Assembly: GCF_048403405.1 (NCBI RefSeq)
Contig: NZ_CP183129.1
DNA length: 64,000 bases
Reading direction: 5' to 3' (one strand)
Origin: Escherichia coli
GTDB taxonomy: Bacteria > Pseudomonadota > Gammaproteobacteria > Enterobacterales > Enterobacteriaceae
A model generated the notes under the pieces. That model saw only the letters and a program-made list of their open reading frames with translations. It searched no databases and was not told the DNA's origin. Below are positions 48,555 through 63,947 of this stretch, piece by piece (positions within the stretch are counted from its first letter, which is position 1; the number at the start of each line of letters is the position of its first letter). The position numbers and the translations under genes were made by a program.

Positions 48555-49185
48555 TTTTCGGAATACCTCTCCCGTTTACTCAGTTGTTCAGGCAGATGGT
48601 GAAGCAGCTCACCGTTGCCGCAGTAAATGGCGGCATGGTTCGGTACCAGCAGCACAGCAGAATATCGCCCGCCTGTGCAGAGGACAGGGGCACCCGGTAA
48701 AAGCCGGTGACCGCCATATTGTCCAGGTAAAGGTTCTGACCGTTGCGCCACCAGTCATCCTCGCGATGAAAATCCGGCATCTCAGTCCCCGCCAGATGAT
48801 AAGCATCCCGGAACAGCGTGTAACAGTCCGTCACCCCGTGCTCAAAGCGCCGTCCTGTCAGATGTGGCACACAGCGGAATTTGTGAATGTCACCCCGGCA
48901 GACCAGCCACCAGGGCAGTGCGCTTTTTATCTGCAGCCGCCGGTCAGCCTCGCTCAGCCAGGGCAGCCCACCGGGATGACTGTGGACCAGTGCCACAATC
49001 TCCCCCTGCATCTCTGCCCGCAGCCAGTCTTCCGGTGCGATACGAAAATACGCCTCCGGCTCTGCAGAAATATTCACACAAGGGATATACCACTCCCCCT
49101 CCGGCGTGCTTATCACGAAGCCGCACGACTCCGCAGGCGCACACCGCCGGGCATGCGCCAGAATCGCTGATTCAGTCTGTGTCAT
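48452..49185 (-). pseudogene. K: tail assembly protein K (JAB/MPN plus NlpC/P60), frame broken by 1-nt deletion near 48632-48645
   Basis: N-terminal part (MTQTESAILAHARR...HSHPGG...TDCYTLFRDAY...DILLCC) in one frame ends at 48580; NlpC/P60 His motif (VPNHAAIYCGNGELLHH) continues in another frame (ORF 48452..48751). Confidence 0.75.
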
Positions 49186-60739: not shown

Positions 60740-60942
60740 AACCTCACTCCCAGCGGACGACGGCGACGTCGGGTTGTCCCCAGTACCGACTCCGCATCAT
60801 TGATCGCCCGGTTAAGCTCATCCAGAGAAGCCGCCGTATATTCAATTCTGCGACCATCTTTCTGGACAGACACCACCCGTTTACCGGTTAATAAATCAAG
60901 GCGCGCCTGACGCAGCGCCTGCAGTTCAGCGACTGTAACCAT
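60736..60942 (-). CDS. W: head-tail joining protein W
   Basis: 68-aa ORF in lambda W position. Confidence 0.85.
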   Translation of the reverse strand: MVTVAELQALRQARLDLLTGKRVVSVQKDGRRIEYTAASLDELNRAINDAESVLGTTRRRRRPLGVRL

Positions 60943-62854
60943 TCACTCCTCCGGACAGCTTCGCTGCCAGTTCTTTAAGGGTTGGCCGGGTCGTCTCTTC
61001 TTCCCGGGATTTTGCCAGTACAGCCAGATCAAGCTGCCAGCGTTGCACGGACACACGTAATGCCGCATAGGCATACACCAGGCAGTCCAGCGCTTCGTTA
61101 CGCCGCTTTTTGTTATCCCACAGCAGACGCATCTTTCCTTTTTCCCACTTCTCCACAAGCTCTTCCGCGACCAGTTGCTGCGCCTCTGTCTGCGAAAAAA
61201 TCTCCGGATCATCAGGAAAACGGATGGCATACGACGTGGCTTCATCCGCAGGAGTGGGATCGGCTTTCATACGGGCATAGAGAATTTCTTTTGCGGTGTC
61301 CGTCCCCACTTCACACAGATACACGCCCCGCTGATTGCGGGTTTTCGGCATGGTGATCACCGGCTTGCCATAGACAGATGCGCCTTTTACCGGCAGCACC
61401 CGGAAAACACCGTGTTTTTTTGACCTCTGATAGACAATTTCACCATCGATCCCCCCGGTGTCCCAGCAGACACGGGAAATGGTCATTTCGGTGCCATCTG
61501 CATGGCAGTATTTTTTGTTGATCGCCGCATCCACACGTAACAGCGTCTCTTCCTCATCGGGACGGCCCATAATGATGATTTTATCCACCAGAAAAGCTTC
61601 CTCTCCCGGTGCCCATCCCCAGACATACATCTCAAAACGGTTTCGCTGCGAGTCAATGCCCGCCGTCAGATAAACCACCCGGGCTGGCACCGCCGCCGTG
61701 TAATGCACGACCTTATCCATCAGTACCTGGTGATCGAGTTTTTCGCCCACGGCCTCTTCCCAGGTCTCGCCCAGCGTGGTGTTCACAAAGGTTTTCAGGC
61801 CGTTGGGATCTTTCAGTGCATCCAGCCAGTCATAGACTATCTGTACCCAGGTGGTGAACGGACTGTACGCCGTCCAGATATGGAACGTGATGGAGCGCGG
61901 CGGCGGAATTTCATTATCCGCGGCGCTGAAAAACGTCAGACCGTCACGGGTCCACATCCCCGTGTTTTCACAGATCCACCGCCCGTTGCTCTGGTCAAGC
62001 TCAGACTGATGGATCACGCAGCCATGATGTTCACAGAGGTAGAAAACGCTTTCGGGGCTGTCCTTCTCCCATTTAAGGCCAAAAGGCGTGGATTCATCGC
62101 CAAATTTCAGATACTGCTCCTCCCCACAGTGTGGGCAGGGCACATAAAAACGCATGAAATGCGCCGACTCGTTGGCCGCTTTTTCGATCTGGCAGGTGCC
62201 TTTGATTTTAGGCGTCGAGCCGCGAATGGATTTGGGCCATACAGAGCCCTCAATACGTTTATCCCCAAGCAGGGTTGGCGACCCCTCTTTTTCGACATCC
62301 GGTTCGAACGAGGAAAGTTCGTCATAGCAGACCACGTCCACGGATTTTTCACGGTAGTTTTTAGCGGCAGCCCCGCCCAGGCACCAGAAGCCCACGCCCG
62401 ATGAAAAACGTTTCAGCGTGAGGGTATTATCACGATGTTTACGCCCAAACCACGGTGCAAGATCGAGTAAAACCGGCACATCCCTGATCGTGGGTTCCAC
62501 ATGAGATTTCATAAAATCTTCAGCAGCAGAATCCGTGGGCTGGAAAAGAAGGCTGTTGCGTGATTTATGCTCAATAAAATAAGCCTCCACTCCCAGCAAC
62601 ATCTTTGTATAACCAACACGGGCAGATTTAATCAGATTAACAGTGCGGATCCGGTCATTCCCCATGCTGTTCATGATGGCAACCTGAAACGGCAGTGTTT
62701 CCCACCGCCCCGGGGTGTAAGATGACTCTTTCGGAAGGTAATAATGTCGATCTGCCCACTGAACTGTCGTCAGAGGGACAGGAATTTTTAGCGCAAGGAG
62801 GCCGGTTGCTATCGCTCCTGCAGAATTAGCCGCCCTCAGTTCGTCTGAAATCAT
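60926..62854 (-). CDS. A: terminase large subunit A
   Basis: ORF 60926..62896; lambda gpA-like (..[14 protein letters not shown]..); start probably the internal Met at about 62854, overlapping Nu1. Confidence 0.9.
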
Positions 62855-63374
62855 CAATCCACCTGCGCACATTCTCACCGGCTTCAGAAGCCACATCGGA
62901 TGCTTTCGCGATTTCAGTTTTCACAGCATCAAGATGTACGGGTGATATATCAGGGTATTTACGCTGCAGTGTCTGAGGGACACGGACAAGGATCCCTGAT
63001 ATATTCTGTGCCACTCGCTGAAAGATGTAGGTAAATAACTCCGTCTCGAGGACAAGGCCTTCCTCACGAGCATTTTTCAGCTCCTGTGCATCGGCCTGTG
63101 CCTTCGTCAGTCGGTAACGTTCGTAATCAATGGTGCAGGGCTGAAGGTCTGATTCGCTGGCAGCCCTCAAATCCTCGATCTCTTTACGGAGTTTTTCGTT
63201 TTCAATATCAGCTTCCCTCTGCGCATACCACTGAATGGCAGCAGTTGTATCAAAAACTGATTCAGTCCCTTTCCCTCCACCAGAAACTAGTGGTAACCCC
63301 TGACTCTGCCAGGCGGTGATGGTCCTGACATCAACGCCAAAAATATCGGCCAGTTTTTTCTTATTGACGTTCAT
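62826..63374 (-). CDS. nu1: terminase small subunit Nu1
   Basis: 182-aa [31 protein letters not shown] (HTH), lambda Nu1-like. Confidence 0.9.
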
Positions 63375-63543
63375 ACACTCCCCCGGGAACCAGAAAGGAT
63401 CTGAAAATGGCGTTTTCTAACAAAAACAGCCTTTGTCAGATCCTTTTATATTTTTAAAATTCTATTGATAATCAATCAGTTAAAAAGAAGAAGAACGGAT
63501 CTGATTTTTCCCTAAAAATTTTCATAAATAGCGAAAACCCGCG

Positions 63544-63555
63544 AGGTCGCCGCCC
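63544..63555 (-). other. cosN cohesive-end site (12-nt GGGCGGCGACCT); cosB presumed between here and Nu1
   Basis: minus-strand sequence TTACGGGGCGGCGACCTCGCGGGTTTTCGCTATTTATG matches lambda cos as I recall it. Confidence 0.8.
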
Positions 63556-63761
63556 CGTAACCGGTCGGATCGCCGGAAAGGACCCACGAAATGATAATTA
63601 TTATCATCTATATAAGGTTTATCACAACATGTGTGTACGCCATCAAACCACGAGAAATAATCAATTATGACGCAGGTATCGTATTAATTGATCTGCGTCA
63701 AATTAACGTAAAAGCAACTTCAGATAATACAAATCAGCAACACTGAATATGGGGAAACATT

Positions 63762-63947
63762 ATGTCATCAAAGAACAGAACCCGCAGAACAACAACCCGC
63801 AACATCCGATTTCCAAACCAGATGATTGAACAAATTAACATCGCTCTTGATCTGAAAGGTTCAGGAAACTTTTCAGCGTGGGTTATTGAAGCCTGCAGAA
63901 GAAGGCTGTCAACAGAGAGTTCGGGTATGAATTACATAATTAAGTAA
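63762..63947 (+). CDS. small prophage protein, YlcI-like (uncertain)
   Basis: 61-aa ORF near cos; family assignment from memory only. Confidence 0.4.
   Translation: MSSKNRTRRTTTRNIRFPNQMIEQINIALDLKGSGNFSAWVIEACRRRLSTESSGMNYIIK

What the first reader, a model, noticed from the sequence alone, without database searches (positions are those of the whole stretch)
63375..63600. Lambda-identical cosN at the end of the window
The 12-nt cohesive end GGGCGGCGACCT with flanking lambda-like sequence (minus strand) lies about 170 bp upstream of Nu1, leaving room for cosB. It indicates lambda-type packaging specificity and fixes the head end of the late operon.
Basis: partly seen in the sequence, partly recalled or inferred. 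Interest (0 to 1): 0.25.

Follow-up and report, generated by a model that had tools for sequence, protein, structure and literature searches.

The report
Prophage cos site, non-lambda recognition
This is the complete DNA-packaging (cos) site of a lambda-like prophage in E. coli: its cutting site matches phage lambda exactly, but the adjacent recognition sites and the protein that reads them are of the Salmonella Gifsy-1 type, so it is an ordinary, well-understood kind of element with a different predicted specificity from lambda.

Summary
GGGCGGCGACCT occurs once in the window (63544-63555, minus strand). The match to lambda is not limited to the 12-mer. Bases +1 to +41 are identical, the 22-bp cosN is 22/22, cosQ (GGGTCCT, 63579-63585) is 7/7, and the terS start lies 169 bp beyond the 12-mer.

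This is a complete lambda-like cos (cosQ-cosN-I2-R3-I1-R2-R1-terS-terL) at the head end of the late operon. However, cosB, the part that sets packaging specificity, is not lambda's.
- The three R sites keep lambda's register and orientation, but their core is CAGATCC, against CGTTTCC in lambda and C(G/A)TGTCGG in phage 21.
- The TerS recognition helix reads RTITAWQS, against RTIQNWQE in lambda and RTIERWQS in 21.
- Both features match Salmonella phage Gifsy-1. The rest of TerS and TerL are 21-like (TerL 94% identical to the available first 309 residues of gp2, 68% to lambda gpA).

Across 139 related loci, helix class and R core co-vary without a real exception.

The locus is a mosaic member of a known family, with a predicted Gifsy-1-class specificity that has not been tested. 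The full cosB occurs in 225 of 5,426 complete E. coli genomes. Interest is low.

The parts
63579..63585 (-). cosQ (GGGTCCT), the packaging-termination element, at cos bp -30 to -24
   Evidence: 7/7 identical to lambda at the same distance from cosN. It is present in the related loci I inspected directly. Its role is taken from PMC4669245.
63539..63560 (.). cosN, the 22-bp nicking region (cos bp -5 to +17). The 12-nt cohesive-end sequence GGGCGGCGACCT is 63544-63555 on the minus strand.
   Evidence: 22/22 identical to lambda.
63506..63538 (-). I2, an AT-rich spacer/bend segment between cosN and cosB (cos bp 18-50)
   Evidence: 28/33 identical to lambda; bp 18-41 are identical. I2 extent and its requirement are from PMC4856287.
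63491..63506 (-). R3-like TerS binding site (cos bp 50-65), AATCAGATCCGTTCTT, core CAGATCC at bp 53-59
   Evidence: Same register as lambda, 21 and Gifsy-1 R3. The core differs from lambda at bp 54-56. Three CAGATCC copies fall within 107 bp, against 8 in the whole 64 kb.
63470..63482 (+). I1-like IHF site, AATCAATCAGTTA, a perfect WATCAANNNNTTR match (cos bp 74-86, bottom strand)
   Evidence: One of only 3 perfect matches in the window. It lies between R3 and R2, at the position annotated as an IHF sequence in phage 21 (bp 75-85).
63434..63449 (+). R2-like site, inverted relative to R3 and R1 (cos bp 107-122), TGTCAGATCCTTTTAT
   Evidence: The core at bp 113-119 is the same position as in phage 21.
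63391..63406 (-). R1-like site (cos bp 150-165), TTTCAGATCCTTTCTG
   Evidence: The core is at bp 153-159, as in phage 21.
62826..63374 (-). [quoted passage not shown]
   Evidence: Pfam Phage_Nu1, 285 bits. Whole protein: 81% to 21 gp1, 51% to lambda Nu1. DNA-binding domain (residues 1-55): 84% to Gifsy-1 (PDB 7LXS), 73% to 21, 60% to lambda.
60926..62854 (-). terL (gpA family, 642 aa), overlapping the end of terS by 29 nt
   Evidence: Pfam GpA_ATPase plus GpA_nuclease. 94% identical to the available first 309 residues of phage 21 gp2 and 68% to lambda gpA.

Best explanation
This is the functional-type cos site of a lambdoid prophage integrated in the E. coli chromosome.

Inferred mechanism, by homology with lambda and 21:
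1. Dimers of the adjacent TerS bind the R3 and R2 repeats across an IHF-induced bend at I1, with R1 as an accessory site.
2. This anchors the 21-like TerL about 47 bp away on cosN, where it makes two nicks 12 bp apart. The result is 5' cohesive ends GGGCGGCGACCT, identical to lambda's.
3. Terminase stays on the cosB end and translocates DNA leftward in window coordinates (terS, terL, head and tail genes first).
4. Packaging ends at the next cos, using cosQ plus cosN.

The site is a three-way mosaic:
- The right arm up to cosQ resembles lambda.
- cosQ-cosN-I2 is the module shared by lambda-like cos phages.
- cosB and the TerS DNA-binding domain are of the Gifsy-1 class (R core CAGATCC, helix T20 A21 S24).
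- The TerS C-terminal half and TerL are phage-21-like.

The predicted consequence is that packaging initiation is specific for Gifsy-1-class cosB and is insulated from lambda and 21 terminases. Cohesive ends and termination signals remain interchangeable with theirs.

Shown here: sequence anatomy, register, homologies and co-variation. Inferred: binding, nicking, specificity, and whether this prophage is active at all.
For: - Anatomy in lambda's order and register: cosQ 7/7, cosN 22/22, I2 28/33. R cores sit at bp 53-59 (direct), 113-119 (inverted) and 153-159 (direct). The corresponding positions are 53-59/114-120/155-161 in lambda and 53-59/113-119/153-159 in 21.
- Repeats are not chance. 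There are 3 CAGATCC copies within 107 bp against 8 in 64 kb, with 6.7 expected. My estimate from those numbers for three or more in a 131-bp interval is about 4e-7.
- A perfect IHF consensus lies between R3 and R2.
- TerS is Nu1 family and TerL is gpA family. The wing residue Lys35 is conserved.
- Gifsy-1 has the same R core three times in the same layout and the same helix, RTVTAWQS. Its DNA-binding domain is the closest solved structure, 7LXS.
- In 139 Nu1-family loci (96 distinct upstream sequences), helix residues 20/21/24 and R core co-vary. The few apparent exceptions were artefacts of the one-mismatch motif counting, plus one locus with a single fused R site. cosN right-half variants assort independently.
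- Segment-wise identities show the mosaic.
- Literature: bp 56, 58 and 59 of R3 and helix residue 24 determine lambda versus 21 specificity, and R3-cosN spacing is critical (PMC4669245, PMC9026076).
Against: - No experiment bears on this prophage. Nicking, IHF dependence and specificity are all inferred.
- The library I could search holds no cross-packaging test of the Gifsy-1 class. N15 terminase packages lambda DNA despite a different R3 (PMC4669245), so distinct R cores do not guarantee full insulation.
- R3 keeps lambda's right half (TCCGTTCTTCTTC, with bp 58-59 as in lambda). Some cross-recognition by lambda TerS is therefore conceivable.
- The co-variation sample is phylogenetically non-independent.
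- No phage record in the collection searched (50,697 records) carries this cosB. Activity of this prophage class is undocumented there.
Confidence: 0.8

Rival explanations
1. One reading: the site has lambda packaging specificity, so lambda terminase would recognise and initiate at this cos.
For: cosQ, cosN and most of I2 are identical to lambda. The right half of R3 (bp 57-65) is lambda-identical and bp 58-59 are as in lambda. The flanking right-arm DNA is 89% lambda-like.
Against: - All three R cores differ from lambda at three consecutive positions, including bp 56, the Glu24 contact (PMC4669245, PMC9026076).
- The cognate TerS lacks Q20, N21 and E24 and is only 51% identical to Nu1.
- Lambda and 21 share the same cosQ and cosN, yet each packages its own DNA more than 1000-fold better (PMC4669245). 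Identity of cosN therefore says nothing about specificity.
- No QNE-helix locus among 40 pairs with a CAGATCC core.
Confidence: 0.08
2. Phage-21 specificity: because TerS is 81% and TerL 94% identical to 21 gp1 and gp2, the site is simply a 21-type cos.
For: Overall terminase similarity. R-site positions are identical to 21. S24 is shared with 21.
Against: - R cores differ from 21 at bp 54-56 and 59 (CAGATCC vs CGTGTCG).
- Helix E20 R21 is replaced by T20 A21.
- cosB gives no blastn alignment to a 21-type cos, whereas Gifsy-1 aligns over 127 of 131 nt.
- None of the 47 ERS-helix loci has CAGATCC as its dominant core.
Confidence: 0.07
3. A decayed cos in a cryptic prophage: the sequence is retained by descent but no longer used.
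For: No phage record in the collection searched carries it. A relative (L156) has lost I1 and R2 by an R3 x R1 deletion. In strain 118UI the same prophage has IS3 insertions.
Against: - All sub-sites are intact and in register.
- terS and terL are full-length with intact Pfam domains.
- The window lacks the IS3 insertion in the tail genes.
- The cosB is conserved at 99-100% in many genomes, and helix and R core remain matched.
Confidence: 0.2

Closest known systems
Bacteriophage lambda cos (cosQ-cosN-I2-cosB with R3-I1-R2-R1) and terminase gpNu1/gpA
   Same: The 12-nt cohesive end, the 22-bp cosN and cosQ are identical. I2 is 28/33 identical. The order, orientation and register of the R sites and the IHF site are the same. 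terS/terL follow immediately, with an overlap between them.
   Different: R core is CAGATCC rather than CGTTTCC (bp 54-56). The recognition helix has T20 A21 S24 rather than Q20 N21 E24. TerS is 51% and TerL 68% identical. terS starts at bp 182 rather than 191.
Phage 21 cos and terminase gp1/gp2 (X02501)
   Same: R cores sit at exactly the same coordinates (53-59, 113-119, 153-159). TerL is 94% identical over the available first 309 residues of gp2. TerS residues 56-182 are about 85% identical, including the C-terminal TerL-binding end. cosQ and cosN are the same.
   Different: R core is C(G/A)TGTCGG in 21. The helix has E20 R21 in 21. cosB DNA is not alignable by blastn. The DNA upstream of cosQ is unrelated.
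Salmonella phage Gifsy-1 cos and TerS (NC_010392; TerS DNA-binding domain structure PDB 7LXS)
   Same: The same R core, CAGATCC, occurs three times in the same layout. The helix specificity residues T20 A21 S24 are the same. The DNA-binding domain is 84% identical. cosB is alignable over 127 of 131 nt.
   Different: Gifsy-1 cosN differs at cohesive-end positions 8, 9 and 11 (GGGCGGCAGCGT). The host is Salmonella. DNA identity in cosB is only 69%. No perfect IHF consensus was found in the Gifsy-1 spacer by my scan.
Phage N15 'simple' cosB (single R3 plus remote rR2)
   Same: A lambda-like cosQ/cosN with a TerS of a different specificity class, showing that cosN and cosB are separable modules.
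   Different: N15 has a single R site, no IHF site and an unrelated R sequence. The window has the complex three-R cosB. A relative (L156) does show a single fused R site.

Membership tests
lambda-like complex cos site | 12-base cohesive-end sequence with strong identity to lambda's, flanked by the conserved CG dinucleotides at the nick positions | tested here: met
   12/12 identical, within a 22/22 cosN. Actual nicking is not testable with these tools.
lambda-like complex cos site | 7-bp cosQ about 30 bp upstream of cosN | tested here: met
   GGGTCCT at bp -30 to -24, window 63579-63585.
lambda-like complex cos site | Three R repeats, with R2 inverted relative to R3 and R1 | tested here: met
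   CAGATCC cores at bp 53-59 (direct), 113-119 (inverted) and 153-159 (direct).
lambda-like complex cos site | IHF site (I1) between R3 and R2 | tested here: met
   A perfect WATCAANNNNTTR match at bp 74-86. IHF binding itself was not tested.
lambda-like complex cos site | Fixed cosN-to-R3 spacing (terminase nicks 47 +/- 2 bp from the R site) | tested here: met
   The alignment to lambda is ungapped from -60 to +70, and the R3 core is in the identical register. The spacing rule is cited from PMC9026076.
lambda-like complex cos site | Adjacent Nu1-family terS and gpA-family terL | tested here: met
   PF07471 at 285 bits; PF05876 and PF20454.
lambda packaging specificity (cosB-lambda / TerS-lambda) | R core CGTTTCC with T:A at bp 56 | tested here: not met
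   The window has A at bp 56, and AGA at bp 54-56 in all three R sites.
lambda packaging specificity (cosB-lambda / TerS-lambda) | Recognition helix with Q20, N21 and E24 | tested here: not met
   The window has T20, A21 and S24.
phage 21 packaging specificity | R core C(G/A)TGTCGG (G:C at bp 56 and 59) with helix E20 R21 S24 | tested here: not met
   bp 56 is A and bp 59 is C. The helix is T20 A21, and only S24 is shared.
Gifsy-1-class cosB/TerS | R core CAGATCC three times in the R3-I1-R2-R1 layout, paired with helix T20 A21 S24 | tested here: met
   The core and the helix specificity residues are identical to Gifsy-1. The DNA-binding domain is 84% identical to 7LXS.
Gifsy-1-class cosB/TerS | Functional cross-packaging with Gifsy-1 terminase, and exclusion of lambda and 21 DNA | not testable with these tools
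   Requires helper-packaging experiments. No such test was found in the searchable literature.

The most novel reading that the evidence does not exclude
The window's prophage carries a naturally chimeric terminase: a Gifsy-1-class DNA-binding domain on a phage-21-class body, acting on lambda-identical cosQ and cosN. On this reading it defines a further functional packaging specificity in E. coli, insulated from both lambda and 21. The same specificity would also be what reads the orphan CAGATCC-type cosB on a widespread island between roxA and phoQ. That island's own terS is flanked by two inverted cos sites of different cosB classes. Prophages like this one would then be its helpers, or its competitors.
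Probability: 0.3. Interest if true: 0.45.

Novelty: new member of a known kind. Interest (0 to 1): 0.2.

Why it matters
For annotation, it fixes the genome ends and packaging direction of this prophage. It also shows that a lambda-identical cosN must not be read as lambda specificity, because the specificity module (cosB plus the TerS DNA-binding domain) is exchanged independently of cosN and of the rest of terminase.

It supplies an E. coli representative of the Gifsy-1 cosB class with lambda ends. That would be a convenient substrate for the lambda/21-style specificity genetics already established.

The tight helix/R-core co-variation gives a simple rule for predicting which prophages and satellites can package each other's DNA.

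Tried and rejected
- Chance match of the 12-mer. Rejected: the 12-mer alone is weak, but 41 identical bases follow and cosQ precedes it.
- Lambda and 21 specificity. Considered and rejected on R core and helix.
- Apparent off-diagonal cases in the co-variation table. All were artefacts of one-mismatch motif counting or ties. Each such locus has exact CAGATCC three times at the R positions, apart from the L156 deletion variant.
- Sippy et al. 2015 (PMC5006951), the primary paper on lambda/21 contacts, is not held. I relied on its summary in PMC4669245 and PMC9026076.
- No paper describing PDB 7LXS, 7LWR or 7LW0 was found.
- Fur-box consensus search returned nothing at up to 3 mismatches.
- No tRNA genes in the window.
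- I asked whether the dual-cos island was the capsid-forming island EcCIEDL933. That family is described as using HNH-dependent packaging, so this was left unresolved.

Full report
**1. Observation**

The 12-mer GGGCGGCGACCT occurs once in the window, at 63544-63555 on the minus strand. On its own it is weak evidence. With one mismatch allowed, 31 of 100 shuffles gave at least one hit.

I fetched lambda (J02459), joined its right and left ends, and compared the junction with the window's minus strand without gaps.
- Bases +1 to +41 are identical, 41/41.
- The 22-bp cosN (-5 to +17) is 22/22.
- -33 to -1 is 28/33, and contains cosQ GGGTCCT at 7/7 (window 63579-63585).
- -60 to -34 is 23/27.
- The DNA further upstream, to -445, is 89% identical to lambda over 277 nt.

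The match is therefore far more than the 12-mer. The Nu1-family ORF (62826-63374, minus strand) starts at cos bp 182, which is 169 bp after the 12-mer.

**2. Context**

The 1.2-kb end of the window is 100% identical to many E. coli chromosomes.

In strain 118UI the cos region is flanked on one side by holin, lysozyme, Rz-like and a YlcI/YnfO-family gene. On the other side lie terS, terL, head-tail joining, portal, S49 protease, decoration, major capsid, FI and the tail genes.

Window 1 to about 37.9 kb is chromosome (rnb, the trp operon, yciEFG, an ompW remnant). About 37.9 to 64 kb is the late half of a lambdoid prophage. The site therefore does mark the head end of the late operon.

**3. Anatomy of cosB**

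After bp 41 the similarity to lambda breaks down, but the architecture does not.
- CAGATCC occurs three times within 107 bp, against 8 copies in the whole window.
- The copies sit at cos bp 53-59 (direct), 113-119 (inverted) and 153-159 (direct).
- Lambda's CGTTTCC cores are at 53-59, 114-120 and 155-161. Phage 21's C(G/A)TGTCG cores are at 53-59, 113-119 and 153-159.
- A perfect IHF consensus (AATCAATCAGTTA) lies at bp 74-86 between R3 and R2. It is one of three perfect matches in 64 kb. Phage 21's record annotates an IHF sequence at bp 75-85.

The layout is therefore cosQ-cosN-I2-R3-I1-R2-R1-terS, as described for complex lambda-like cos sites (PMC4669245, PMC9026076, PMC4856287).

**4. The proteins**

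TerS (182 aa) is Nu1 family (Pfam, 285 bits). TerL (642 aa) has the gpA ATPase and nuclease domains.

| Comparison | Lambda | Phage 21 | Gifsy-1 |
|---|---|---|---|
| TerS, whole protein | 51% | 81% | not stated |
| TerS DNA-binding domain (residues 1-55) | 60% | 73% | 84% |
| TerL | 68% | 94% (first 309 residues of gp2) | not stated |

TerS residues 56-182 are 79-91% identical to 21, against 24-78% to lambda. The closest solved structures by sequence are the Gifsy-1 DNA-binding domain (7LXS), then 21 (7LWR) and lambda (7LW0, 1J9I).

The recognition helix (residues 17-24) reads:
- window: RTITAWQS
- Gifsy-1: RTVTAWQS
- phage 21: RTIERWQS
- lambda: RTIQNWQE

**5. What sets specificity**

According to PMC4669245 and PMC9026076:
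- R3 bp 56, 58 and 59 and helix residue 24 are key.
- Lambda Glu24 contacts T:A at bp 56 and clashes with 21's G:C.

The window has A at bp 56, unlike either phage, and C at bp 59, as in lambda. Its helix residues are T20, A21 and S24.

Gifsy-1 has the same core, CAGATCC, in all three R sites at bp 53-59, 114-120 and 154-160, and the same helix residues. Its cosN differs at positions 8, 9 and 11, as the literature states.

**6. Co-variation survey**

I collected 120 loci carrying the cosN motif and 80 loci encoding TerS relatives. I then paired each Nu1-family TerS helix with its upstream R sites. The set comprised 139 loci with 96 distinct upstream sequences.

| Helix residues 20/21/24 | R core | Examples |
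|---|---|---|
| QN(E/D) | CGTTTCC type | lambda, phi80 |
| ERS | C(G/A)TGTCGG | phage 21 |
| T(A/G/S)S and STN | (C/G)AGATCC | window, Gifsy-1, SerU-LTIIb |
| DRT | CATGTC(A/G) | PhiR5_1 |

The few apparent exceptions were counting artefacts, plus one deletion variant. cosN right-half variants occur with more than one class. The cosB/DNA-binding-domain pair therefore behaves as one module, separable from cosN. The sample is not phylogenetically independent, so this is supporting evidence, not proof.

**7. Mosaic structure**

Segment-wise blastn gave:
- Right arm and -60 to -34: a hit to lambda (88-89%), none to the 21-type or Gifsy-1 references, and only an 18-nt match within -60 to -34 for PhiR5_1.
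- cosQ-cosN-I2: shared by all the references compared.
- cosB: aligns along its length only to Gifsy-1 (127 of 131 nt, 69%).
- terS codons 1-55: full-length alignments to Gifsy-1 (76%) and PhiR5_1 (68%).
- terS 3' part and terL: best matches are 21-type and PhiR5_1-type (77-95%).

**8. Prevalence**

The full cosN-cosB stretch is found in 225 of 5,426 complete E. coli genomes. The cosN+I2 part is found in 4,129. No record among 50,697 phage records covers this cosB. The closest TerS in an isolated E. coli phage is 21-type, at about 82%.

**9. Verdict**

The specificity-determining cosB and TerS domain are Gifsy-1-class, on a 21-like terminase, and not lambda-type.

The mechanism is inferred by homology. 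In that model, TerS binds R3 and R2 across an IHF bend, TerL nicks cosN, and cosQ serves termination. Nothing was tested functionally.

This is a new member of a well-known kind, and interest is low.

**10. Side observations**
- A widespread island between roxA and phoQ carries its own N15-type terS flanked by two inverted cos sites. The second has an orphan window-type cosB.
- A relative of this prophage has a single fused R3/R1 site. This mirrors the route proposed for the origin of N15's simple cosB (PMC4669245).

Noticed in passing
L025 11480-12500; L034 1-1100; L212 3851-14287 (E. coli O157:H7 PV15-279): A roughly 10.5-kb island lies between roxA and phoQ. It encodes an integrase, Icd-like proteins, a RepA helicase, SSB, PerC, a lambda gpE-like capsid protein, a gpD-like decoration protein and an N15/Monarch-type terS.

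Its terS is flanked by two cos sites in inverted orientation with identical cosQ-cosN halves. The first has an N15-type cosB. The second has a complete window/Gifsy-1-type cosB (R3-I1-R2-R1, core CAGATCC in the same register) with no cognate terS next to it.

The 1-kb structure is present in 487 of 5,426 complete E. coli genomes, so it is not an assembly artefact. It may allow packaging initiation by two terminase specificities. I found no description of it in the papers I read.
   Followed up: partly
L156 about 1020-1200 (IMGVR_UViG_2529293040_000025): This cos is otherwise nearly identical to the window's, but it has a 100-bp deletion that fuses R3 to R1 (AATCAGATCC|TTTCTGG, then the terS ATG), removing I1 and R2. 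It is a natural single-R 'simple' cosB. That is the unequal R3 x R1 crossover route that Feiss and colleagues proposed for the origin of N15's cosB.
   Followed up: partly
window 63591-63607: A perfect palindrome ATGATAAT-T-ATTATCAT lies just upstream of cosQ, at cos bp -36 to -52. It is conserved in lambda as GATGATAATCATTATCA and, in degraded form, in several of the related cos regions I inspected. It resembles the 3' two-thirds of the Fur-box consensus, but the full 19-mer has more than 3 mismatches. Function unknown.
   Followed up: partly
window 63762-63947 (+): A 61-aa DUF3950 (YlcI/YnfO-family) gene is transcribed away from cos, antisense to the late operon. It is conserved next to cos in lambda's unannotated right end.
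   Followed up: no
window 49179-49182 versus L211 4677-5890: Strain 118UI carries an IS3-family insertion among the tail genes of the same prophage. The window lacks it, so the window's copy looks less decayed.
   Followed up: no
L179-L190, L129 (SerU-LTIIb): A sub-class has helix T20 G21 (or S21) and the same (C/G)AGATCC R cores, but a very different cohesive-end sequence (for example GGGGACGGCAGA). In SerU-LTIIb it sits next to heat-labile enterotoxin IIb genes. This is further evidence that cosN and cosB are exchanged independently.
   Followed up: no
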